From a virus, in the IMG/VR virus record IMGVR_UViG_3300035698_016731, positions 1 through 64,000 of that record: a stretch of 64,000 bases of DNA. One strand, written 5' to 3'. Below, one piece after another: positions 4,503-20,417 of the stretch. The position numbers and the translations under genes are program-made. The first letter of the stretch is position 1, and the number at the start of each line of letters is the position of its first letter. The notes under the pieces were generated by a model. It was not told the origin of the DNA, searched no databases, and was given only the letters and a program-made list of their open reading frames with translations.

Positions 4503-5331
4503 TCCTAAAATCATTATCTGTGGGTGTGGAGCAAGTGCTTCCATAGCTAAGCACTACTTTCCTGAATCTATGGTTATAGGGAAAGTGACCTCACCCACAT
4601 ATAATTTCGGTCTACATTATTTACATAGACCTTTAGAAGATATTTTTGAAATGCAAAAGATAAAAGTAGAAACAACAATAGATTTTGAACCAGTTACAAA
4701 AGAAGGAATTGAGCGATATAAAAAATCTGTATATGGAGATACTTGGGAAGAGCATACAAATAAAGAAGGACAATTTCCAGTTGGTGTAACTTATGGGTGG
4801 CTAATAAAAGGAGATAAGAAACCTTTGAAAGTAGATAGAGATGGAATGATACAGCATATTGATATATATAAAAAGACTATTGAAGTTGGTAGCTCTACAT
4901 ACTTCTATGATGTCCTAATAAATACTATACCTTTAAATATTTTTGCTGAGTTGATTGGAATAAAAATGGTAAATGATTTCCAACATTCTCCTATCTGTAT
5001 ACACCAAAGAGTCTGTCTTAGAACCGATAAGTGTGACCCTTACTTGTGGACTAATTATGATACTAAATATGAATATTATAGATATACAAAACTTTTTAAT
5101 GATAATAAAATATTTGAAACAAAAGAACATATCGGAGACTGCTTGGATGGAGTAGTAACTCTGAGACCAGGAAAAATCTTGAACTCAGGAGATTATAATA
5201 ATCTACTACAAAATCTTTTTAGAAAAGAAGTATATAGTGTTGGAAGATATGCTCAATGGGACAGCTCAGTACTATTGCACAATGTTGATGATAGAGTGAG
5301 GACTATAAAGGATATGCTCAATGAATTTTAA
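4492..5331 (+). CDS. FAD/NAD-dependent oxidoreductase (UDP-galactopyranose mutase/amine oxidase-like fold)
   Basis: N-terminal IIICGCGASA dinucleotide motif, LINTIPL, C-terminal GRYAQW; start moved to ATG 4492. Confidence 0.7.
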   Translation: MLDNPKIIICGCGASASIAKHYFPESMVIGKVTSPTYNFGLHYLHRPLEDIFEMQKIKVETTIDFEPVTKEGIERYKKSVYGDTWEEHTNKEGQFPVGVTYGWLIKGDKKPLKVDRDGMIQHIDIYKKTIEVGSSTYFYDVLINTIPLNIFAELIGIKMVNDFQHSPICIHQRVCLRTDKCDPYLWTNYDTKYEYYRYTKLFNDNKIFETKEHIGDCLDGVVTLRPGKILNSGDYNNLLQNLFRKEVYSVGRYAQWDSSVLLHNVDDRVRTIKDMLNEF

Positions 5332-10188: not shown

Positions 10189-11370
10189 ATGAAAGTATAT
10201 GAAGGCAAAAGAGTACCAATAAAATGTTGGTGTAATAATCCAGAACAAGGAGCATTAAACCAGGCACAGAACTTAGCAAGTCTACCTTTTGTCTTTAAAC
10301 ATATCTGTCTTCTGCCTGACACTCATCAAGGTTATGGTATGCCTATTGGTGGGGTTATTGCATGTAAACAAATAGTTATCCCAAATGCTGTAGGAGTAGA
10401 CATTGGCTGTGGAATGTGTGCAGTACAAACCTCATTAACAGAAATAACTCAAGAACAAATTAAAAAGATTTTTGGAGGCAGCAAAGAAAATCATGGAGGT
10501 ATTAGAAGTGCAATCCCTGTAGGATTTAATCACCATAGTAAAAAACAAGAATGGGAAGGCTTTGAAGAACACCCTGATATTCCAATTATAAATCAGGAAA
10601 TTGAATCATCTAAAAAACAACTTGGGACTCTTGGTGGAGGAAATCACTTTATAGAAATACAAAAAGGAAGTGATGGATATATCTGGATTATGCTTCATTC
10701 TGGAAGTAGAAATTTCGGCTTAAAGATAGCAAAAACTTATAACCGAATAGCTACTAATTTATGTAACAGATGGTTTTCAAATATACCTCCAATAAAAGGA
10801 GAGGATGGTCTTGCTTTTCTTCCTATAGAGACAAAGGAAGCTAAAGACTATTTGTCTGCTATGAACTATGCTTTAAAATTTGCTCTTGAAAATAGAAAGA
10901 AGATGATGAGTGTAATAAAATATGAATTTAATGAAGTAACTGATTGTTTTTTTGACCAGGAAATAAATATCCATCATAACTATGCTAAGTATGAAAATCA
11001 TTTTGGAAAGAATGTTATTATTCACAGAAAAGGTGCTACTTCAGCAAGATTAGGAGAATATGGAATCATACCAGGAAGTCAGGGAACAGCATCATATATA
11101 GTAAAAGGTAAAGGCAATCCAGAAAGTTTCAATTCTTGTTCTCATGGTGCAGGTCGGACAATGAGCAGAAGTAGAGCCAAAAAAGAACTTAATTTAGAAG
11201 AAGAGCAGAAAAAATTAAATGATAAAGGTATTATACATTCTATCAGAAATGCTAAAGACTTAGATGAAGCAAGCTCTGCATATAAAGATATTGATTTAGT
11301 TATGCAAGAACAAGATGACCTTGTTGAAATAGTTGTTAAACTTGAACCTCTGGCTGTAATAAAAGCATAA
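10189..11370 (+). CDS. rtcB: RtcB RNA 2',3'-cyclic phosphate/5'-OH ligase
   Basis: PDTHQGYGMPIG, GVDIGCG, GTLGGGNHFIE, HSGSR, HHN, HRKGAT, PGSQG, SHGAGR, DEA..AYK. Confidence 0.97.
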   Translation: MKVYEGKRVPIKCWCNNPEQGALNQAQNLASLPFVFKHICLLPDTHQGYGMPIGGVIACKQIVIPNAVGVDIGCGMCAVQTSLTEITQEQIKKIFGGSKENHGGIRSAIPVGFNHHSKKQEWEGFEEHPDIPIINQEIESSKKQLGTLGGGNHFIEIQKGSDGYIWIMLHSGSRNFGLKIAKTYNRIATNLCNRWFSNIPPIKGEDGLAFLPIETKEAKDYLSAMNYALKFALENRKKMMSVIKYEFNEVTDCFFDQEINIHHNYAKYENHFGKNVIIHRKGATSARLGEYGIIPGSQGTASYIVKGKGNPESFNSCSHGAGRTMSRSRAKKELNLEEEQKKLNDKGIIHSIRNAKDLDEASSAYKDIDLVMQEQDDLVEIVVKLEPLAVIKA

Positions 11371-11585: not shown

Positions 11586-12003
11586 TAAATTCAAACATTT
11601 CTTTACTGGGGGAGGCAAGGAAGGCAAAGAGCACAAAATCACAGAACAAGATTTTGAAAAGATAGAGAAGCCTCATGTAAAGTCTAAACCAAAAAAGAAG
11701 AAGAAAAAGAAATACATCTTTGATGGGTATATTTGTCCTTTCTGTAAAAAAGAACTTGAATATGCTGCAGTAAGTGATAAGCCAAAATGGTTTGGTAATT
11801 GGATGAGGAAGAGAAAAAGCTATTGTAAGGAGTGTGGAGCTTTAGAAGTAAAAGAAGGTTGTCCTGCTTGTCATAGAGATATATGGTACCATAATGGAAT
11901 GTTTACCCATCAACATAGTGGTTGTGGTTATAAAGGGGTAGGTGTGTTTGAGGATAGGTTAAAAGTTCTGGAACAAATAAGAGAAAATAAAAGAAATGAG
12001 TAA
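11572..12003 (+). CDS. multi-CxxC zinc-ribbon protein
   Basis: CPFC, CKEC, CPAC, poly-Lys. Confidence 0.6.
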   Translation: MRINSKFKHFFTGGGKEGKEHKITEQDFEKIEKPHVKSKPKKKKKKKYIFDGYICPFCKKELEYAAVSDKPKWFGNWMRKRKSYCKECGALEVKEGCPACHRDIWYHNGMFTHQHSGCGYKGVGVFEDRLKVLEQIRENKRNE

Positions 12004-12337
12004 TTCATTAGAAAGTAAAATTATAGCGAAAGAGATTGTGAACTATTGCAAAGAAAATAACTGTTTTGAAAAGTTATTGGATTTGTATGCTACTGAAAAT
12101 CCTGATATGTTTATTGATTTTGTTCATCATATTGTTACAGCAAAATTTGAATTTGTAAGAGATGAAAATATTCGAGATGTTTACAATATTCTTGCTTGGC
12201 ACAGTACTTGTTTGGGTATAAAAGATGAATTAAAAAAATTAGGAAAAGACGATAAAATGTTTCCAAATGAGCTAACAGAGAAAGAAAGAACTATATTTAG
12301 TGAATGGCATAAGAATAAAAGAAAGGAGAGTGAATGA
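11996..12337 (+). CDS. hypothetical protein
   Basis: overlapping operon ORF. Confidence 0.6.
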   Translation: MSNSLESKIIAKEIVNYCKENNCFEKLLDLYATENPDMFIDFVHHIVTAKFEFVRDENIRDVYNILAWHSTCLGIKDELKKLGKDDKMFPNELTEKERTIFSEWHKNKRKESE

Positions 12338-12472
12338 TGATAGTTATATTAGCTTGGTGGGTAGTAGGATTTCTTTTTACATTAGGATTCATTAAAACTA
12401 GCAATAAGAATATACATTATATGGAAGATTTTTGGGGGTTCTTCTTGTGGCCAATGTTTTGGGGAAGCTTAG

Positions 12473-12742
12473 TTGCAACTCACTTATATGATAATGAGGA
12501 TAACAAATAAAATGAAATACTATATGATAATTAGTAAAAAAAGCAAAAAGCTTCCTACAGTCAAAGGAGATTGCTGTGCTGGGCTTTATGGGACTAAAGA
12601 TGCTGCACAAAGTTGGTTGGGAGATACTGTTGAAAGTAAAAATTGGATAGTTGTACCAGTTGGAGTAGAAATAATAGAAGAACTTGTTATAAGTAAAAGT
12701 ATGGCTAAGAGATTATCTATTCAAAGAGGTGAGAGATGTTAG
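12473..12742 (+). CDS. hypothetical protein (start uncertain)
   Basis: ORF in operon. Confidence 0.45.
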   Translation: MQLTYMIMRITNKMKYYMIISKKSKKLPTVKGDCCAGLYGTKDAAQSWLGDTVESKNWIVVPVGVEIIEELVISKSMAKRLSIQRGERC

Positions 12743-13011
12743 AAGAAACAAGAGGCACTATAAGAAGGGGAGAATATCACCCAGCTGCAGCTGCTGCTAT
12801 GGCTTATATGAAAACTTTATCCTTGATTACATTAACTATGTATTTGGAATCTTTTTCTAGTTGTGCTATTGAAGGAAATAGATTGGGAGAAATTTGTAGT
12901 GAAACACTTAATAGATTAATGAAAGGTGACCCAATTAGCGACAGATACCTTTTGGGTTTGGCTTGGACAATTAAAAGTATGGAAGAGAATAATGAAGAAA
13001 TTAATCTTTGA
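12736..13011 (+). CDS. hypothetical protein
   Basis: RBS GAGGTG. Confidence 0.6.
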   Translation: MLEETRGTIRRGEYHPAAAAAMAYMKTLSLITLTMYLESFSSCAIEGNRLGEICSETLNRLMKGDPISDRYLLGLAWTIKSMEENNEEINL

Positions 13012-13036
13012 ATGGCTAGAAAAAAAATAAAAAAAT

Positions 13037-13070
13037 AACACTTTACTTTTCGTAAATAACAGAATATAAT
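13037..13070 (+). promoter_or_regulatory. promoter AACAC-TTTACT-N17-TATAAT (copy 3, upstream of the 13096 gene, RNA array and TerD-like gene)
   Basis: TTTACT 13042-13047, TATAAT 13065-13070, A-tract upstream. Confidence 0.82.
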
Positions 13071-13095
13071 AGGTTTATAGAGTAGGAGAGATAGA

Positions 13096-13413
13096 ATGAT
13101 AGAAGTTGACAACAAAGTAATATTTGGTTGCTATGATACTTTTTTTGCAGAAGCTAAAGAAGTATTTATAAAAAAAGATATTGATTATGGAAAACATTGG
13201 TTGAATAGTAGATTTAAAAATGGTATGCATTTACTAGTTCATATGGAAGGAAAAGTATCTCGATTGATAAATCTTCTTGAAAATGATGGTGACCCTAATT
13301 TTGAGAGTGTACATGATTCATGTATAGACTTAGCTAATTTTAGTAATATGTTAGATATGTATTTGAAAATAAAGGAGAGTGAATTCGAAGATAAAGAGAT
13401 ACTACAAATATAA
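13096..13413 (+). CDS. DUF1599 / nucleotide-modification-associated all-alpha (MazG-like) protein
   Basis: KK..DYG, K..RL..L, ES..D..IDLAN pattern. Confidence 0.7.
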   Translation: MIEVDNKVIFGCYDTFFAEAKEVFIKKDIDYGKHWLNSRFKNGMHLLVHMEGKVSRLINLLENDGDPNFESVHDSCIDLANFSNMLDMYLKIKESEFEDKEILQI

Positions 13414-13414
13414 T

Positions 13415-13914
13415 AAGACAAAGAGAGTTCCTATTAACCTGACTTGAAATCAAAAATACTCTCCGTCTTTTAAATAGTGAAGACATAAGAAGTTCCTAAA
13501 CGACAATACTCTGATAATGTAAATACTTCTCGTCTTCATAAAAATTGAGGCATAAAAAGTTCCTAAACAACTTTCATTTGGAGAAAAAATACTTTTCGCC
13601 TCCCTAAAAAATTGAGACAAAAAAAGTTCCTATTAAAAAATAATCTGCCTAACCAGCAGACTCGAAAGATACTTTTCGTCTCATTAAAAAGGGAGATTTT
13701 TAAAGACAGAAAAAGTTCCTAATAACCGACAGAGCCTTCCTTTTAGGTTGGCTGTGCCACTGAAATACTTTTCGTCTTTTTAAAAAAATTTAAGACATAA
13801 GAAGTTCCTATATATATCGGAACTGGCTAACCACCAGTCTAAATACTTCTCGTCTTTTGAAAATAAAAACAAACTAAGGCAAAAAAAGTTCCTATCTGGT
13901 TACTTTTAGCCTTA
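13415..13914 (+). ncRNA. tandem array of 7 structured RNA units with constant bulged-stem scaffold and variable tRNA-anticodon-arm-like payloads
   Basis: units at 13415-13469, 13478-13538, 13547-13602, 13613-13683, 13702-13779, 13792-13856, 13875-13914; invariant AGTTCCTA...TACT; compensatory changes in both helices; A/T-rich linkers; no ORF. Confidence 0.85.
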
Positions 13915-13933
13915 CCACTAAAGGAGGGATGTG

Positions 13934-15838
13934 ATGAAGTCAACCATCAATCTATTCAAAGCTCTTCCTATCACAAAGAAAGGGAAGAAAAATGCCAACC
14001 GACTAATTCTTGAAGAGACTATAAAAAGAGGATTTGTATTCTCTCCTGAAGTAGTTAAGAATTACTCTGAAGCAGAGTTGCTCCAGTTAATCAAAGTTGT
14101 TGAGAAAGAAGTAGGCTTGACAGCAGGACAGATGAATGCTTCTTTCCATAAGTCTTGGAAGAAAGTTCAAGAAGCCAGTATCGAGCAATTAGTCATGGAA
14201 CAGTTGATTCACTATATGACTACCTATGGCTTTGAAAGAATGGGGATATATGATGAGAGTACAGTCTTTATTCCTGTTGAAGAGTTGGATATTCCTGAAA
14301 CAAAGTTAGACCAAATAAAACTAACTGTAATAAAAGGATATACTAAAGATGAATTGAAAGTAAAGTTGTTAGACTTTCTGGATACAGGAATTGCTTTAAA
14401 AGAGGAAACAAAGAAAGATGTTATAGATGTTTCTACTTTTGTAGATGTAGAGACTAATGACCTTGAAAAAGTGAAAAATAAAGAAGTTCGGATAGCTCTA
14501 TATGATTATTTAGATATATTTCCTAAGAGTCCTGTAGAGTTCCTACGTTATGCTATTTATAAGTCTACCAATAAGACTCTTCTCATTAAAGACAAAATGA
14601 CTATAGCTGAGATAAAGTCTAAAGATAACCTTCAGACTCTTGCTCTTTTCAACAAATATAAAAAGAAATATGGTTTAGAAAGATTGAGTGAAATATTCTA
14701 TCGCTTTAAACCTCTCTTCCTTGCTTTTAAAACCAATACCAGATTAGGAAGTATAATAAACCGAATCAGAAAGCTTGCTCCAAAGAACCATAAGCCTCTT
14801 CCAGAAGATTATCTGAACACAGTTACGGCTCGGATAAAGAAAGGAAAGAAGCTTAATACAGTAGAATTAGAAAGGTGTTTAGAAAAAGCAAATACCTTCA
14901 GAAAGATAAGGTTAGCTTATGCTTTGAAGTTCCGTACTATTGGTGCTGATTCTATTCTATATCGAATAAGGAATGGTAAAGGATTTGCAAAAGCATTTGA
15001 GCCATCTAATAGTATGGTTTCTAATATGATTTTAGCACAAGTCTTACACTCTATTGCTAAAAGTGTAAAGGAAAATGTAAAGGGGAAGAAAATCTATATC
15101 CCTGATTATATAGACTATGCTCTTCCTGCTACAGAGAAGATGTTTACAGGAGACTTTCCTTCAGGTACTTGTGTAACAGTTCCTAACAATATGATTCTAG
15201 GAGTACAGTGGTTCAATCTTAAAGGTCAGAGAATAGACCTTGACCTATCTTTGCAGAATCCTGAACTTGGGAAGATAGGATGGGATAGAAGTTATCGGAC
15301 TGATGATAGAAAAATCTTATTCTCTGGAGATGTAACAGATGCTCCTAAACCAAAGGGAGCTTCTGAACTCTTCTATATTAAGAAACAGTTTAACCAGGAT
15401 ATGATTCTGGTAGTAAACTATTTTAATCATGACAAAGCACAGAATGCTGAAGTTCCTTTTAAAATCCTAGTTGCTCAAGAGGAAGTAGCAAGATTTGGAA
15501 AGAACTATACTGTTGACCCAAATAATGTACTATCTGTATCTAAGACTTCCATAAATAAATCACAGAAGATATTAGGTCTACTTTCCATTACTGAAAAGGA
15601 ATGTAAGTTTTACTATGCTGAAGCTAATATAGGAAAGTCTATAACCTCTTATGGAGCTGACTATATGGAACACAGTAGAAAATACCTTTTCCAGTTCTAT
15701 AAAAATACTATAGGATTGAAAGGTATTCTCGAATATGCTGGTGCAACAGTAGTTGGGGATAAGGAAGAATGTGATATAGATATTGACCTTTCTCCTGAGA
15801 CATTAGAGAAAGATACTATAATCAATCTGTTGAAATAA
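13934..15838 (+). CDS. large helical protein with C-terminal TerD-like domain; candidate partner of the RNA array
   Basis: RIDLDLS, IGWD, FSGDVTDAP..GASE, VVNYF resemble TerD-family motifs; basic, helical-looking N-terminal ~380 aa; RBS AAGGAGGG at 13921-13928. Confidence 0.7.
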   Translation: MKSTINLFKALPITKKGKKNANRLILEETIKRGFVFSPEVVKNYSEAELLQLIKVVEKEVGLTAGQMNASFHKSWKKVQEASIEQLVMEQLIHYMTTYGFERMGIYDESTVFIPVEELDIPETKLDQIKLTVIKGYTKDELKVKLLDFLDTGIALKEETKKDVIDVSTFVDVETNDLEKVKNKEVRIALYDYLDIFPKSPVEFLRYAIYKSTNKTLLIKDKMTIAEIKSKDNLQTLALFNKYKKKYGLERLSEIFYRFKPLFLAFKTNTRLGSIINRIRKLAPKNHKPLPEDYLNTVTARIKKGKKLNTVELERCLEKANTFRKIRLAYALKFRTIGADSILYRIRNGKGFAKAFEPSNSMVSNMILAQVLHSIAKSVKENVKGKKIYIPDYIDYALPATEKMFTGDFPSGTCVTVPNNMILGVQWFNLKGQRIDLDLSLQNPELGKIGWDRSYRTDDRKILFSGDVTDAPKPKGASELFYIKKQFNQDMILVVNYFNHDKAQNAEVPFKILVAQEEVARFGKNYTVDPNNVLSVSKTSINKSQKILGLLSITEKECKFYYAEANIGKSITSYGADYMEHSRKYLFQFYKNTIGLKGILEYAGATVVGDKEECDIDIDLSPETLEKDTIINLLK

Positions 15839-15845
15839 GGAAAAC

Positions 15846-18800
15846 ATGAGTAGAGACTTTTGCCACCTACACTTGCATGACGAGTTCTCTATACTGGATG
15901 GTCTTGGACATCCCTCAGACTATGCAACGAGAGCTAAAGAACTTGGGCAGAAATACATCGCTCAGACTAATCATGCGAGTATGGGTGGTCTTTATAGATT
16001 CCATATTGCAGTTACTAAAGAGAAAATAAAACCAATTCTTGGACAAGAGTTATATTATGTAGATTCCCTAGAAGATAAAGGAGCAAGACGGCACCATCTC
16101 ATTCTTCTAGCTAAGAATCAGAAAGGCATAGAAAGTCTCAACTCTCTTATCACCATAGGTAATGAACCAGAAAACTATTATCGTAGACCTCGTGTAACTA
16201 TAGATATGATTTGTAAATACTCTAAGGGTTTAGTCTGTGCTACAGCTTGTGTTGCTGGTCCATTGGGAAAAGAAAATGGAGAAAAGGATTTTAGAAAACT
16301 ACTTGAGTGTTTTGCTGAAGATTTATATTTAGAGATTCAACCTCATGTTTGGAATGAACAATCTCTCTTAAATCAACAAGCCTATAGATACTGGAAAAAA
16401 TATGGAAGTAAAGTAATAGCCACTAATGATTGTCATTATGTATTAAAAAAGCATGCTACTTCTCATGAAGTCCTCTTAGCAATACAAAGAAAAGCTAAAT
16501 GGGGTGACCCAAAACGTTGGAAGTTTGACATCAGAGACCTCTATCTTAAAAGCCGAGAAGAAATGTTAGATGACTTCCAAAGAATGGAAAACAAATTTAA
16601 GACAGATTTACCTAATAAATTCTATATAGAATCCCTAGAAAACACCATGCTAGTGGCGTCATCGTGTCACTTTAAGCTTAAAGACCTGCCTCTTAACCTT
16701 CCTAGTGTAAACGACTCGGATTGGACTGATGATGAGCTTTTTAAGAAGAAATGTCTTCAAGGATATAAAAAGAGATTTGACTTTAAAAAGGACAGTCCTG
16801 AATATTTGAGATATAAGAAAAGATTACAATTTGAAATAAGAACCATTATTGAAGGTGGTTTTAGTAGATATTTTTTAATAGTTCTGGATTTAGTAGAGTG
16901 GGCAAGGCGAGAGGATATAATGGTTGGACCAGGCAGAGGTTCTGTGAGCTCATCCCTAGCCAGTTATTGCTTAGGAATTTCTGGTATTGACCCAATTCAC
17001 TACGGACTTATATTCTCTCGCTTCATATCTCCAGACCGAATAGACCTTCCAGATATTGATATTGATTTTGAAGATAGGAAAAGAGATAGAGTTGTGACCT
17101 ATCTTACTGAGAAGTATGGAGAGAAGTGTGTAAGTGGAGTAATTACTTTCGCTAACATGAAGGGCAAGATGGCTATTAAAGATGTAGCTAGGGTGTTTGA
17201 TGTTAGCATAAAGGAAACAAATGATGCAACAAAAATGATAGTTACTCGGAGTACAGGAGATGCAAGAGCAGATTTCTCCATAGATGATAGCTTTAAAGTA
17301 TTTGAAGAATGCATAAAATATAAAAAGAAACATCCAGAAGTAATTAAACACGCCACAGTTTTAGAAGGAAATATCCGACAAGTCGGTCAACATGCTGCAG
17401 GAGTTGTTGTCTCAGGAGATGAGATTGTGCCGAAACGTGCAGCCATTCTTCGAGGTTCTAAGGGTAAGATACTCTGTTATGATAAAGATGACTTAGATAG
17501 AATTGGATTGATGAAGTTAGATATTTTGGGATTAAGAACCTTGAGCATACTTAATGACGTACAACATTTGGTTAAAGATAGACTTGGAGAAGTTCTGGAC
17601 TTTGAGAAGATAGATGTAGGAGATGAAGAAGTGTTGAAGATGTTTGGAGAAGGAGACACTATTGGAGTCTTTCAATTTGAATCTAAGGGTATGGCTAAAC
17701 TTTGTAAAAGATTAGCTCCAATAGAAAATTTTGATATGTTAATTGACGCTAATGCTCTCCATAGACCTGGTTGTATTAAGTCTGGAACTATGAGCAGATA
17801 TGAAGATGTAAGACATGGACGCAAAAAACCTGACTATATTATTCCTTATATGAAAAAGATAACTGAACCAACTCGTGGTATAGTTCTTTATCAAGAGCAA
17901 ATTATGCAAACTATGGTTTTCCTTGCAGGATTTGGTTGGAAAACTACTGACATGATTAGAAAAGTGGTTAGTAAAAGTAAGGGAGATGAATTGTTTGGAA
18001 AGTTTGAAGAAGAATTTGTAGCGAAGTGTAAAGAAAAAAGAAACATTTCTCCAAAGCTATCCAGAAAACTTTTTAAAGAGATTCAGACTTTTGGAAGTTA
18101 TGGATTTAACAAATGTATATGTGGTGATACTAAAGTGTTAAGGGCATCTTGGTACAAAGGAAATAATGCATATTCTATTAAACATTTGTGGAAAATAGTT
18201 AATAATATAGAATATGCGAAAGAAGTCCATGGTCTTTCTTTAAGAAGCAAATTAAGAACTTATGGATATGGTTTTATATTAAGTCAGCATAAAAATGGAA
18301 GAATAAAACCTAATAAAATTATAGATATATATTATAATGGAGAGAAAGAAGTATATGAAATAGAAACTGTTGGAGGAGATTTTGTAGAAGCTACTTTAGA
18401 CCATAGATTTTTAACAAGTAAAGGTTGGAAAAAATTAGAAGATATTGAAATAGGAGATAAAGTAGCCTTTATAGGAGACTATGAAAAATCTAATATCAGA
18501 TATAACTTTACCAATGGAAATTTTAAGTTAAACTCTAAAAAAGGTAAAGAAGGATTTCAAGAAAAACCTAATGGGCAGTCTGTTAAATTTCAGAGGATAA
18601 GAAAAGATTATCTTAAAAAGTTTGGAAATAAATGTATGGAATGTGGGAAGGAACACAAAAGAATAGAAACTGCTCACTTAGATGGAAATAGATTAAACAA
18701 CAAGAAAAGTAATTTAAAAAATCTTTGTCCAAGGTGTCATAAAGTTCATGATTATTCTTTAGGAAGGAAAAAGAAATGGGACAAAGGCAGACCTACTATA

Positions 18801-20417
18801 TACAAAAAAGTCAAAAGCATTAACCTTTCTGGAATGAAAGATACTTATGATATAGAAATGGAATCTCCTAATAACAACTTTATAGCTAATGGATTTGTTA
18901 GCCACAACTCTCATGCTTGTACCTATTCTCTTATAGGATTCTGGTGTATGTATTGTAAAATACATTACCCCACTATCTTCTTTAAAGCTGTTATAGAGAA
19001 TACAAATGCTGATGATAGGTTATGGGAAGCTTTTGAAGGCATGAGACAAATGGACATTAAGACATATATGCCTGATGTAAACCATTCTCAAAGGAAAATA
19101 GACTTTTATGAAGATGGACTGATGTTGGGATTTGCTTTAATAAAAGGATGTGGAGATAAAGCAACTGAGAATATGTTAGGAGAAAGAGAGAAAAATGGAC
19201 CATTCAAAGATTTTCAAGATTTCCTAAAAAGAGTCAACAGAAGAGTAGTCAATAAGAGAGTAATAGAAGCTATGGCTTCAGTAGGAGCTTTTAAATGTTG
19301 GTATCCTAATCAACGGCAACTTATGGAAAACCTTGAACAAGTCTTAAAGGGAAAGTATGAGTGGAAGAAGGAGTATGACTTCTACTCTGAGAAACAAACT
19401 CTTATGATTATAAAGAAACTTATTCCATATATTTCTGGAGCTAATAAGATATATTTCTTTGACAGGCTCAGAAGTATGTTAGGAAGTTTGAAGATAGCTG
19501 AAATAAATTTCAAAAGAGCCAATAGGAATTATACAGTTATCGGAGAGCTTACTGAAGTGAAGTATAGTTATGCTGAAGCTCATAGTGGTAAGAAGATAGG
19601 TGGATTTGTAGACCAACAAAATCTCGGAAATGTATATGGGAATCTATATGATGGAGAAGAGTATATAGTTGGCTGGTTTGATGGAGACATAAAAGCTAAA
19701 CATAAAGATGAAATAGAAAGTATTAAATCTAATGTTATCTGCAGTAAGTTAGAAAATCTTGCTCATAAAACAAGAGTAGCTATCCGAGATTATGCTATCG
19801 TTGATGGCATTCAAGATATAGATATGATTCAACGATTAAAAAAGATAACTAAGTTTAGAATATTGAGAAGGAAAATAAAAAAGAGAGTAGATTGTACAAG
19901 TTGTAATAATTGTAAATTGAGAGAGACTTGCACCAACCCAGTTCCCTATTATTGTAGCAGGGATAAATTCTATGGATTTATAGTAGGAGAAGCACCAGGT
20001 AAGAATGAAGATGCAGGAGGAAAACCATTTATTGGAATGGCAGGAAGAGAGTTAAGAAATATGTTCGACAAGTGTGGAATGAGTGCGAGTGATTTCTTTA
20101 TAACTAATGCTGTAAAATGTCGTCCACCTAGCAATCGAAAACCTTATAAGAATGAAATAGGAAAGTGTGCAAGGTTATGGTTAGAAAAGGAAATAAAAAC
20201 CAACAAGCCAAAGGTAATACTAAGCTTGGGAAATACTCCTTTGTATTTCTTTACAGGAAAGGAGAGTGGTATACTTGAGATGAATGCAAAGTATGAATGG
20301 AACTATGACTATGAGTGTTTTGTAGTCTATTCAATTCATCCTGCAATGGTGTTGTATAACTCTGAGAACAGAGGGATGTTGAGAGAAAGTGTAACTTTAC
20401 TAAGTCAGTTTATATAA
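15846..20417 (+). CDS. dnaE: DNA polymerase III alpha (DnaE) with intein and C-terminal family-4 uracil-DNA glycosylase domain
   Basis: PHP HLHLHDEFSILDG and TNDCHY; GPGRGS, PDIDIDF, HAAGVV, KLDILGL, YQEQ, FNK/SH; UDG GEAPG..E..PFIG, NAVKCRPP.NR.P, HPA. Confidence 0.96.
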   Translation: MSRDFCHLHLHDEFSILDGLGHPSDYATRAKELGQKYIAQTNHASMGGLYRFHIAVTKEKIKPILGQELYYVDSLEDKGARRHHLILLAKNQKGIESLNSLITIGNEPENYYRRPRVTIDMICKYSKGLVCATACVAGPLGKENGEKDFRKLLECFAEDLYLEIQPHVWNEQSLLNQQAYRYWKKYGSKVIATNDCHYVLKKHATSHEVLLAIQRKAKWGDPKRWKFDIRDLYLKSREEMLDDFQRMENKFKTDLPNKFYIESLENTMLVASSCHFKLKDLPLNLPSVNDSDWTDDELFKKKCLQGYKKRFDFKKDSPEYLRYKKRLQFEIRTIIEGGFSRYFLIVLDLVEWARREDIMVGPGRGSVSSSLASYCLGISGIDPIHYGLIFSRFISPDRIDLPDIDIDFEDRKRDRVVTYLTEKYGEKCVSGVITFANMKGKMAIKDVARVFDVSIKETNDATKMIVTRSTGDARADFSIDDSFKVFEECIKYKKKHPEVIKHATVLEGNIRQVGQHAAGVVVSGDEIVPKRAAILRGSKGKILCYDKDDLDRIGLMKLDILGLRTLSILNDVQHLVKDRLGEVLDFEKIDVGDEEVLKMFGEGDTIGVFQFESKGMAKLCKRLAPIENFDMLIDANALHRPGCIKSGTMSRYEDVRHGRKKPDYIIPYMKKITEPTRGIVLYQEQIMQTMVFLAGFGWKTTDMIRKVVSKSKGDELFGKFEEEFVAKCKEKRNISPKLSRKLFKEIQTFGSYGFNKCICGDTKVLRASWYKGNNAYSIKHLWKIVNNIEYAKEVHGLSLRSKLRTYGYGFILSQHKNGRIKPNKIIDIYYNGEKEVYEIETVGGDFVEATLDHRFLTSKGWKKLEDIEIGDKVAFIGDYEKSNIRYNFTNGNFKLNSKKGKEGFQEKPNGQSVKFQRIRKDYLKKFGNKCMECGKEHKRIETAHLDGNRLNNKKSNLKNLCPRCHKVHDYSLGRKKKWDKGRPTIYKKVKSINLSGMKDTYDIEMESPNNNFIANGFVSHNSHACTYSLIGFWCMYCKIHYPTIFFKAVIENTNADDRLWEAFEGMRQMDIKTYMPDVNHSQRKIDFYEDGLMLGFALIKGCGDKATENMLGEREKNGPFKDFQDFLKRVNRRVVNKRVIEAMASVGAFKCWYPNQRQLMENLEQVLKGKYEWKKEYDFYSEKQTLMIIKKLIPYISGANKIYFFDRLRSMLGSLKIAEINFKRANRNYTVIGELTEVKYSYAEAHSGKKIGGFVDQQNLGNVYGNLYDGEEYIVGWFDGDIKAKHKDEIESIKSNVICSKLENLAHKTRVAIRDYAIVDGIQDIDMIQRLKKITKFRILRRKIKKRVDCTSCNNCKLRETCTNPVPYYCSRDKFYGFIVGEAPGKNEDAGGKPFIGMAGRELRNMFDKCGMSASDFFITNAVKCRPPSNRKPYKNEIGKCARLWLEKEIKTNKPKVILSLGNTPLYFFTGKESGILEMNAKYEWNYDYECFVVYSIHPAMVLYNSENRGMLRESVTLLSQFI
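18114..18908 (+). mobile_element. intein (265 aa) with HNH endonuclease, in DnaE
   Basis: GFNK|CICGDT ... TLDHRF ... YDIEM..NNFIANGFVSHN|SHA; internal CxxC..H.DGN..NN...NL..LC..CH. Confidence 0.93.

What the first reader, a model, noticed from the sequence alone, without database searches (positions are those of the whole stretch)
13434..13843. Array payloads look like tRNA anticodon stem-loops
Seen: most payloads contain a 7-nt loop with U at the position equivalent to U33, closed by a short stem. Unit 1 is TGA-CT[TGA]AA-TCA (Ser-UGA loop). Unit 2 is TACT-CT[GAT]AA-TGTA (Ile-GAU loop, one T-T mismatch). Unit 3 is TTTC-AT[TTG]GA-GAAA (Gln, or a shifted TT-TGG Pro register; ambiguous). Unit 4 is TCTGC-CT[AAC]CA-GCAGA. 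Unit 5 is CCTTC-CT[TTT]AG-GTTGG (Lys-like, two T-T mismatches; a Gly-like AGC-CTTCC overlaps). Unit 6 is ACTGG-CT[AAC]CA-CCAGT. From memory, to be verified: TCTGC-CTTACAA-GCAGA is the anticodon arm of Bacillus-type tRNA-Val(UAC), and CTACA-CTGATAA-TGTAG is that of Bacteroidota tRNA-Ile. No D arms or complete T arms are present. Established: several anti-phage effectors (PrrC, RloC, PARIS AriB, some retron and toxin nucleases) cut anticodon loops. Inference: the array is a modular library of anticodon decoys or inhibitors displayed on a common scaffold.
Basis: partly seen in the sequence, partly recalled or inferred. Interest (0 to 1): 0.92.

Follow-up and report, generated by a model that had tools for sequence, protein, structure and literature searches.

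The report
Handle RNAs displaying tRNA anticodon arms
A salt-lake phage carries seven small folded RNAs with one conserved "handle"; three of them display near-copies of real tRNA anticodon arms, and the same handle sits upstream of one uncharacterised protein gene in every related phage locus and most cellular loci searched, often near RNA-repair genes, so this looks like an undescribed counterpart of the Ro60/Y-RNA particle.

Summary
The array is real: seven units at 13414-13914 (+) share a covarying bulged stem enclosing UCCUA...AAU and a variable insert. The anticodon-arm reading holds for part of the array. W1 differs at 2 of 17 positions from the anticodon arm of a tRNA-Ser(UGA) gene in a related phage. 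W4 differs at 2 of 17 from a tRNA-Val(UAC) arm (positions 34 and 37). W6 has the same loop on the stem of another tRNA-Val(UAC). W2 has only the tRNA-Ile(GAU) loop, on a weak stem. W3 looks like a D arm, W5 is another hairpin and W7 is empty.

Across 208 phage inserts, about 15% pass an anticodon-loop profile (31 against 11.8 in shuffles). Other inserts are D-arm-like, T-arm plus acceptor, whole permuted tRNA bodies (sub-threshold YrlA hits), tetraloop hairpins or unclassified.

All 76 phage loci with upstream sequence, and 52 of 61 cellular loci searched, have units upstream of a 635-aa helical + TerD-fold protein. tRNA genes or RtcB are often nearby.

Best reading: Y-RNA-like RNAs that present tRNA parts on a protein-bound handle. 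A decoy function is untested. This scan has reported the same module before on other DNA.

The parts
13414..13470 (+). Unit W1: handle plus an insert with the hairpin CCTGA-CTTGAAA-TCAAA (13438-13454), a Ser(UGA)-type anticodon arm
   Evidence: CM R1 62.5 bits. 2 of 17 mismatches to the tRNA-Ser(UGA) arm at L097:1047-1138. The loop CUUGAAA recurs in 6 phages on different stems.
13479..13537 (+). Unit W2: insert TACT-CTGATAA-TGTA (13507-13521). The loop equals the tRNA-Ile(GAU) loop; the stem is weak (one U-U).
   Evidence: R1 61.6 bits. The loop is identical to that of the tRNA-Ile(GAU) arm CCATC-CTGATAA-GGTGG of L020. The nearest real arm is 5 mismatches away. RNAfold predicts no stable hairpin.
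13546..13603 (+). Unit W3: insert TTTC-ATTTGGA-GAAA (13572-13586), D-arm-like rather than an anticodon arm
   Evidence: R1 67.1 bits. A nearly identical insert occurs at L017:2850-2908. The D-like class is 47 of 208 against 16.1 +/- 3.5 in shuffles.
13613..13683 (+). Unit W4: insert TCTGC-CTAACCA-GCAGA (13644-13660), a tRNA-Val(UAC)-type anticodon arm with changes at positions 34 and 37
   Evidence: R1 63.6 bits. 2 of 17 mismatches to TCTGC-CTTACAA-GCAGA of the tRNA-Val(UAC) gene at L097:399-475. RNAfold predicts the 5-bp stem and 7-nt loop.
13702..13779 (+). Unit W5: a long imperfect hairpin (13730-13756) with CCUUUUAGG at the tip. Only loosely Lys(UUU)-like.
   Evidence: R1 51.5 bits. In the fold the tip is a 3-nt loop. 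The anticodon-arm register needs two U-U pairs. The nearest real arm is 5 mismatches away.
13791..13857 (+). Unit W6: insert ACTGG-CTAACCA-CCAGT (13822-13838). Same loop as W4, on the stem of another tRNA-Val(UAC).
   Evidence: R1 60 bits. The stem is identical to the arm ACTGG-TCTACAC-CCAGT of the tRNA-Val(UAC) gene at L020:32-107, and to that of tRNA-Cys at L059:1120-1196. Fold.
13875..13914 (+). Unit W7: a complete handle with only a 12-nt core (UCCUAUCUGGUU). It ends 6 nt before the ribosome-binding site of the protein gene.
   Evidence: R1 43.3 bits; sequence.
13934..15838 (+). Gene for the 634/635-aa partner protein: helical N-terminal region (1-400) plus a TerD-fold domain (about 415-590). 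The likely start is ATG 13934.
   Evidence: AF2 pLDDT 92.7. TerD fold: 2qz7_B Z 10.2, 2kxt Z 9.5, Foldseek probability 1.0. No Pfam match. 1680 clusters at 50% identity. Units lie upstream in 76 of 76 phage loci and 52 of 61 cellular loci.
10189..11370 (+). RtcB RNA ligase gene, 2 kb upstream on the same strand
   Evidence: Pfam RtcB, E = 4.7e-112. RtcB also lies next to the module in Chryseobacterium and other cellular loci.

Best explanation
The seven units are small non-coding RNAs, or RNA modules of one transcript, built on the plan of Y RNAs. Each has a conserved handle: a 5-bp outer stem, a 3-nt/1-nt bulge, a 6-bp inner stem and the internal-loop motifs UCCUA and AAU. Each also has a variable insert. 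The handle is the probable binding site for the helical + TerD-fold protein encoded immediately downstream. The insert presents a piece of tRNA. In this phage, W1 presents a tRNA-Ser(UGA) anticodon arm. W4 and W6 present tRNA-Val anticodon arms whose loops carry A34 and C37. W2 may present an Ile(GAU)-type loop. W3 presents a D-arm-like hairpin.

Shown here: the structure and its covariation, the strict genomic linkage to the protein, the identity of the inserts to tRNA arms, and the neighbourhood of tRNA genes and RtcB.

Inferred: that the protein binds the handle, and that the particle acts on tRNA damage or repair by mimicking tRNA parts. It could compete for enzymes that bind or cut anticodon loops, or bring such enzymes or RtcB to the particle.
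For: Handle: 98.9% of cells paired, 10 of 11 pairs with compensatory changes, and 0 of 500 shuffles reach this. There are 32 G-U pairs against 2 U-G, so the fold belongs to the gene strand.

Linkage: 211 units in 76 of 76 phage loci with upstream sequence, all on the gene strand. Units are found in 52 of 61 cellular loci searched. In this 79.8-kb phage record the only units are these seven.

Inserts: W1 and W4 are 2 of 17 positions from real arms, and the W6 stem equals a tRNA-Val stem. This exceeds both the dinucleotide null and the hairpin-preserving null. Family-wide, 31 of 208 inserts pass the anticodon-arm profile against 11.8 +/- 3.1 in shuffles. The strict CU-NNN-AA loop occurs 18 times against 1.8. 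T arms occur 9 times against 0.1. D-like hairpins occur 47 times against 16.1.

Full permuted tRNA bodies hit Rfam YrlA below threshold: 45.4 and 39 bits against a gathering score of 69.

Context: RtcB is in the window. tRNA genes flank the module in 25 phage loci. Chryseobacterium has WYL regulator | RtcB | 3 units | protein. RtcB lies within 5 kb in 30 of 80 cellular loci.

Protein: confident model, TerD fold at the C-terminus, helical N-terminus. Ro60 structures give the longest alignments, but at a weak Z.
Against: There is no expression or binding data. No RNA sequencing run holds this stretch.

Most inserts family-wide fit none of the tRNA-part classes I defined (103 of 208), and many short inserts have no stable fold.

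W4 and W6 have C at position 37, which none of the 86 real arms has. They are therefore altered copies, and what the loop does is open.

Units always lie just upstream of the gene, and W7 abuts its ribosome-binding site. A purely cis-regulatory role would explain that equally well.

The protein is not detectably a TROVE protein by sequence. The structural likeness to Ro60 is within the noise range for helical proteins.

The phage loci are related to one another, so counts of insert classes are not independent events.
Confidence: 0.6

Rival explanations
1. Anticodon-nuclease decoy kit. Each anticodon-arm unit is a competitive inhibitor of a host tRNA-cutting defence enzyme. The loop changes in W4 and W6 (U34 to A, A37 to C) make them bind without being cut. 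The protein stabilises or delivers them.
For: W1, W4 and W6 are near-copies of real arms. The same altered loop CUAACCA is kept on two different tRNA-Val-type stems, which points to selection on the loop. RtcB is in the phage. This phage record has no tRNA genes of its own, whereas relatives carry many.
Against: No nuclease, host or target is known. Only about 15% of inserts family-wide are anticodon-arm-like. The module is also chromosomal in free-living bacteria next to RtcB, where an anti-defence decoy makes less sense. The CUAACCA loop is rare: in the loci held here it occurs otherwise only in L036, and a pattern scan of IMG/VR added no further real unit.
Confidence: 0.2
2. Cis-regulatory leader. 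The units are repeated operators in the 5' untranslated region through which the 635-aa protein, or another factor, controls its own translation. The inserts would be largely neutral decoration.
For: Units are on the gene strand and nearly always within 400 nt upstream. The last unit ends 6-25 nt before the start codon. W7 has no insert, and its 3' strand overlaps a CCUU that could pair with AAGG of the ribosome-binding site. There are no + strand terminators inside the array.
Against: Inserts are conserved between phages whose proteins are only 60% identical (W3 and L017b). They are enriched for tRNA parts, including complete permuted tRNA bodies. Some units lie downstream of the gene or more than 1 kb away (L086, L047, L048, L080, L035, L087). 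One operator would be enough for autoregulation.
Confidence: 0.12
3. tRNA capture. The 7-nt loops do not mimic anticodons but pair with them. The AAC in W4 and W6 is the Asn codon, so the particle would bind or sense particular tRNAs by loop-loop pairing.
For: The loop UUAACAG at L017:2917-2983 is the exact reverse complement of the common insert loop CUGUUAA, which is the tRNA-Asn loop. Loops containing UAAC recur in W4, W6, L036, L022, L017 and L090. C37 is unlike any tRNA.
Against: The W4 and W6 stems are those of tRNA-Val genes, which points to descent from anticodon arms. W1 and the other CU-NNN-AA loops are exact tRNA loops. No test of pairing was possible.
Confidence: 0.06
4. Antisense guides. 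The inserts direct the protein to nucleic-acid targets, as in CRISPR or TIGR arrays.
For: The layout is that of an array of constant scaffold and variable insert next to a large protein gene.
Against: Inserts fold on themselves and range from 12 to about 97 nt. Sense and antisense matches to the phage's own genome are no longer than those of shuffled inserts. No nuclease-like domain was recognised in the protein.
Confidence: 0.02

Closest known systems
Ro60 (Rsr; TROVE + vWA) with bacterial and phage Y RNAs, especially YrlA (Rfam RF02553; Chen et al. 2014, PMC4201824), as in the Salmonella rsr-yrlBA-rtcBA operon
   Same: Both are modular small RNAs with a bulged stem that serves as a protein handle and a second module that mimics tRNA. 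Full-type units of this family have the YrlA order: T arm, acceptor stem closed by a loop, then D arm. Both are encoded next to a large partly helical protein with a metal-binding-type C-terminal domain. Both are linked to RtcB and both occur in phages and bacteria.
   Different: The handle sequence and geometry differ, and no window unit hits YrlA. The protein has no TROVE or vWA signal and ends in a TerD fold. Inserts are often single tRNA arms, including anticodon arms, which YrlA lacks because its handle replaces the anticodon loop. Units come in tandem arrays of up to seven.
Phage-encoded tRNAs that replace or resist cleaved host tRNAs, for example the T5 tRNA-Lys that neutralises PARIS AriB (PMC11464382; PMC12409363), and the T4 RNA repair answer to PrrC (my own knowledge)
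   Same: These are phage answers to attacks on anticodon loops. The anticodon arm is the contested element, and RNA ligases take part.
   Different: Those are complete, functional tRNAs. Here there are no D or T arms, no acceptor end and no tRNA call by ARAGORN or Rfam. Only the arm is shown, on a foreign scaffold.
Type III toxin-antitoxin RNA arrays (ToxI/ToxN; my own knowledge)
   Same: Both are tandem structured RNA repeats directly upstream of, and co-transcribed with, a protein gene whose product binds them.
   Different: ToxI repeats are identical 36-nt units without variable inserts, and the partner is a small endoribonuclease. Here the partner is a 635-aa helical + TerD protein with no recognised nuclease fold.

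Membership tests
YrlA / Y RNA-like (Rfam RF02553) | Match to the Rfam covariance model at its gathering score (69 bits) | tested here: not met
   There is no YrlA hit in window 12000-15500 even at E <= 10. Relatives with full inserts score 45.4 bits (L096, tRNA-like part only) and 39 bits (L032), both below 69.
YrlA / Y RNA-like (Rfam RF02553) | tRNA-like domain with a T arm, an acceptor stem closed by a loop, and a D arm | tested here: not met
   This domain is absent from all seven window units. It is present in some relatives (L020:1363-1479, L032:1365-1484, L096:1209-1333, L097, L090, L111, L150).
YrlA / Y RNA-like (Rfam RF02553) | Encoded beside, and bound by, a Ro60/TROVE protein | tested here: not met
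   Pfam TROVE finds nothing in the whole phage record or in the neighbouring protein and 60 relatives. Binding cannot be tested with these tools.
Ro60 / TROVE protein family | TROVE helical ring fold | tested here: inconclusive
   With the N-terminal model, VIA-align gives phage phiLo Ro60 (9l5y_B) Z 5.4 over 191 residues at rmsd 5.9, and Xenopus Ro (1yvp_A) Z 5.2 over 244 residues at rmsd 7.1. These are the longest alignments in the list, but the Z values are within the noise range for helical proteins. Foldseek finds no match.
TerD domain family | TerD beta-sandwich fold | tested here: met
   Residues about 415-590 match 2qz7_B (Z 10.2, rmsd 3.1, 146 aligned) and 2kxt (Z 9.5). Foldseek gives probability 1.0 for 2kxt, 3ibz and 2qng. 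The Pfam TerD model does not match by sequence.
tRNA genes | Cloverleaf with acceptor, D, anticodon and T arms | tested here: not met
   ARAGORN finds no tRNA in the window or in the rest of the record. Rfam tRNA does not hit the array.
tRNA anticodon arm (as a structural element) | 5-bp stem, 7-nt loop, Y32, U33, R37 | tested here: inconclusive
   W1 has the loop CUUGAAA, which scores at the 75th percentile of real arms, but only 3 clean stem pairs. W4 and W6 have a 5-bp stem and a 7-nt loop with C32, U33 and A38, but C37, which is 0% in 86 real arms. W2 and W5 need U-U pairs. W3 and W7 do not qualify.

The most novel reading that the evidence does not exclude
The phage carries a programmable set of anticodon-arm look-alikes. 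Each arm is copied from a tRNA that a host defence nuclease attacks, and some are altered at positions 34 and 37 so that they bind but cannot be cut. They are held on a common handle by a Ro60-like but unrelated protein that works with RtcB. This would be an RNA-based anti-defence system whose specificity is changed by swapping the insert.
Probability: 0.2. Interest if true: 0.9.

Novelty: new variant of a known kind. Interest (0 to 1): 0.75.

Why it matters
If the handle RNAs do bind the helical + TerD protein, this is a second, widespread counterpart of the Ro60/Y-RNA particle. The protein family has 1680 clusters at 50% identity and occurs in phages, cultured bacteria such as Chryseobacterium and Ktedonobacter, and genomes assembled from metagenomes that are labelled archaeal. 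The role of the tRNA-like part of Y RNAs is still unknown.

This family shows the display principle more plainly than YrlA does, because the insert can be any single tRNA arm. That includes near-exact anticodon arms of named tRNAs, which gives concrete, testable ligands. It also opens a possible RNA-based route by which phages and cells deal with enzymes that cut or modify anticodon loops. The Chryseobacterium operon offers a culturable system in which to test it.

Tried and rejected
- **Rfam, window array:** only chance snoRNA-like rows.
- **Phage GenBank DNA search:** no match.
- **First loose pattern scan:** mostly chance hits, but it did yield the related loci L006 and L007.
- **My own regex scanner for units:** far too permissive, so I dropped it in favour of the covariance model.
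- **PDB sequence search with the protein profile:** no hit.
- **Pfam, NCBIfam and PHROGs on the protein:** nothing, apart from a short weak NCBIfam row (RING_SCO0854, 24 bits against a cut-off of 600) that I did not follow.
- **Foldseek on the N-terminal domain:** nothing at E <= 0.001.
- **Sequencing runs:** no RNA holder is listed; there are only salt-lake DNA runs.
- **Laying four DNA runs on the stretch:** only short, low-depth contigs identical to the window, plus relatives' contigs on conserved parts of the protein gene. No variant array was found, so nothing can be said about insert swapping between strains.
- **Pattern scans of IMG/VR for further CUAACCA units:** 120+ and 17 hits. None is a real unit by the model or by eye.
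- **Antisense-guide idea:** no match to the phage's own genome above chance.
- **Literature searches for RtcB with TerD, and for TROVE, RtcB, Archease and Y RNA:** no description of this module in the held library.
- **Complex prediction:** not used, because it cannot model a protein with RNA.

Full report
**What is there.** Between the stop of a 105-aa ORF (13413) and the start of a 635-aa ORF (ATG 13934) lie seven tandem units on the + strand: 13414-13470, 13479-13537, 13546-13603, 13613-13683, 13702-13779, 13791-13857 and 13875-13914. Each unit has:
- a 5-bp outer stem (RRGRC/GYCYY);
- a bulge of 3 nt on the 5' side and 1 nt on the 3' side;
- a 6-bp inner stem ending in G-C and an invariant U-A;
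- the constant internal-loop motifs UCCUA (5') and AAU (3');
- a variable insert between them, giving a variable core of 12-50 nt from UCCUA to AAU in this window.

The stems already covary between the window's own copies (GAGAGU/ACUCUC, AGGC/GCCU). Rfam has no family for this RNA, and ARAGORN finds no tRNA in the window or in the rest of the 79,774-bp virus record.

**The family.** I built a covariance model from 15 units (A2, R1). It finds 211 units in 76 non-redundant phage loci that were fetched through the downstream protein.
- Every locus that has upstream sequence has at least one unit. The range is 1-7 per locus and the mode is 3; this window has the most.
- All units are on the gene strand, and nearly all lie within 400 nt of the start codon.
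- On the best 150 units, 98.9% of cells are paired and 10 of 11 pairs show compensatory changes. No shuffle or slid register comes close.
- G-U pairs outnumber U-G pairs 32 to 2, so the fold belongs to the sense strand.
- In cellular genomes, the same RNA precedes the same gene in 52 of 61 loci searched.

**The partner protein.** The protein family is large: more than 3000 hits in one search and 1680 clusters at 50% identity. It has no Pfam, PHROG or PDB sequence match.
- AlphaFold gives a confident model with pLDDT 92.7.
- Residues about 415-590 have the TerD fold: 2qz7_B Z 10.2, 2kxt Z 9.5, Foldseek probability 1.0.
- The helical N-terminal 400 residues have no Foldseek match.
- With VIA-align the longest alignments are to Ro60: phage phiLo Ro60 at Z 5.4 over 191 residues, and Xenopus Ro at Z 5.2 over 244 residues. 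These Z values are in the noise range for helical proteins, so kinship to TROVE is open. Pfam TROVE finds nothing.

**The inserts, family-wide.** Some relatives carry a complete, circularly permuted tRNA body: T arm, acceptor stem closed by a loop, then D arm. This body hits Rfam YrlA below threshold, at 45.4 and 39 bits against a gathering score of 69. Among 208 unique phage inserts I counted the following classes:

| Class | Seen | Expected in dinucleotide shuffles |
|---|---|---|
| T arms | 9 | 0.1 |
| D-arm-like hairpins (loop A..UGG) | 47 | 16.1 +/- 3.5 |
| GNRA or UUCG tetraloop hairpins | 28 | 4.3 |
| 7-nt loops reading CU-NNN-AA | 18 | 1.8 +/- 1.3 |
| Pass an anticodon-loop profile (positions 32, 33, 37, 38) from 86 real arms of tRNA genes in the same loci | 31 | 11.8 +/- 3.1 (0 of 300 shuffles reach 31) |
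| None of the classes in the first four rows | 103 | - |

For cellular inserts, 10 of 91 pass the profile against 3.5 expected. The recurrent loops are exact tRNA loops:
- CUGUUAA (Asn), 8 times;
- CUUGAAA (Ser-UGA), 6 times, on covarying stems;
- CUGUAAA (Tyr);
- CUGCAAA (Cys);
- CUUUUAA (Lys, in Chryseobacterium).

Anticodon-arm display is therefore a real class, but a minority one. The phage loci are related to each other, so these counts are not independent events.

**The window's inserts.** I compared them with the 86 real arms.
- **W1:** CCTGA-CTTGAAA-TCAAA, against CTTGA-CTTGAAA-TCAAG of the tRNA-Ser(UGA) gene at L097:1047-1138. That is 2 mismatches in 17.
- **W4:** TCTGC-CTAACCA-GCAGA, against TCTGC-CTTACAA-GCAGA of the tRNA-Val(UAC) gene at L097:399-475. 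That is 2 mismatches, both in the loop (U34 to A, A37 to C).
- **W6:** the same loop as W4, on the stem ACTGG/CCAGT. This is the stem of the tRNA-Val(UAC) gene at L020:32-107.
- **Significance:** W1, W4 and one unit of L030 are the three closest of the 261 inserts compared. Dinucleotide shuffles never came within 2 mismatches in 20 replicates. A null that keeps every hairpin expects 0.055 such matches and finds 2, a result that 2 of 400 replicates reach. W1 was not counted in that test, because only 3 of its 5 stem positions pair.
- **W2:** it shares only the tRNA-Ile(GAU) loop, and its stem needs a U-U pair.
- **W3:** a D-arm-like hairpin, conserved almost letter for letter at L017:2850-2908.
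- **W5:** a longer imperfect hairpin.
- **W7:** no insert.

**Context.**
- RtcB lies 2 kb upstream in the window.
- In 25 related phage loci, tRNA genes flank the module on the same strand.
- In Chryseobacterium the order is WYL regulator, RtcB, three units, then the protein.
- RtcB is within 5 kb in 30 of 80 cellular loci, from about six lineages.

This parallels the rsr-yrlBA-rtcBA arrangement described for Ro60 and Y RNAs (PMC4201824).

**Reading.** The best-supported explanation is a Y-RNA-like particle: the handle binds the helical + TerD protein and the insert shows a tRNA part. The structure, the linkage and the identity of the inserts are shown. Binding and function are inferred.

The decoy idea fits, and the shared altered loop of W4 and W6 is suggestive. 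However, nothing tested here separates a decoy from an adaptor, a repair platform, tRNA capture or autoregulation. For tRNA capture, note that AAC is the Asn codon and that the loop UUAACAG in L017 is the reverse complement of CUGUUAA. For autoregulation, note that W7 abuts the ribosome-binding site. The antisense-guide reading is unsupported for the phage's own genome.

**Earlier notes of this scan.** The same RNA-protein module has been reported several times on other DNA, with the same reading. I re-derived the structure, the linkage, the TerD fold, the RtcB context and the anticodon-arm class independently here. I found no description of the module in the held literature.

Noticed in passing
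window 13909-13928: The 3' strand of W7's outer stem (GCCUU) overlaps a CCUU that could instead pair with AAGG of the ribosome-binding site AAGGAGGG (13921-13928). Forming or binding the handle could therefore free or hide the ribosome-binding site.
   Followed up: no
window 15846-20417: A DnaE-type DNA polymerase III alpha gene carries an intein (with HNH-like matches) and a C-terminal uracil-DNA glycosylase domain, all in one 1523-aa ORF directly after the TerD-protein gene.
   Followed up: no
L163:1309-6683 (Chryseobacterium sp. PMSZPI chromosome): The arrangement here is a divergent WYL/WCX regulator, RtcB, three handle RNAs (4745-4910) and then the helical + TerD protein. The RtcB neighbourhood recurs in all 27 listed Chryseobacterium loci. 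This is a culturable system for testing the module.
   Followed up: partly
L017:2917-2983 compared with L019, L024, L027, L033 and L077: The insert loop UUAACAG is the exact reverse complement of the common insert loop CUGUUAA, which is the tRNA-Asn loop. UAAC-containing loops also occur in W4, W6, L036, L022 and L090, which hints at paired 'codon-like' and 'anticodon-like' inserts.
   Followed up: partly
L020:32-1133 and other loci (L041, L043, L064, L097): In related phages the module sits inside, or at the end of, long same-strand tRNA gene arrays (11 tRNAs just upstream in L020). This window's phage record has no tRNA gene at all.
   Followed up: partly
window 13096-13413: A 105-aa ORF directly upstream of the array matches phrog_1485 and, weakly, DUF1599 (nucleotide-modification-associated domain). 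It follows a promoter-like site at 13042-13070. It is not conserved upstream of the array in other loci.
   Followed up: no
scaffold internal loop, all units: Many inserts contain UGG or GGA(A), which could pair with the invariant UCC of UCCUA. In the D-arm-like class this would make a pseudoknot or a D-loop/T-loop-like contact. UCC never varies, so covariation cannot test this.
   Followed up: no
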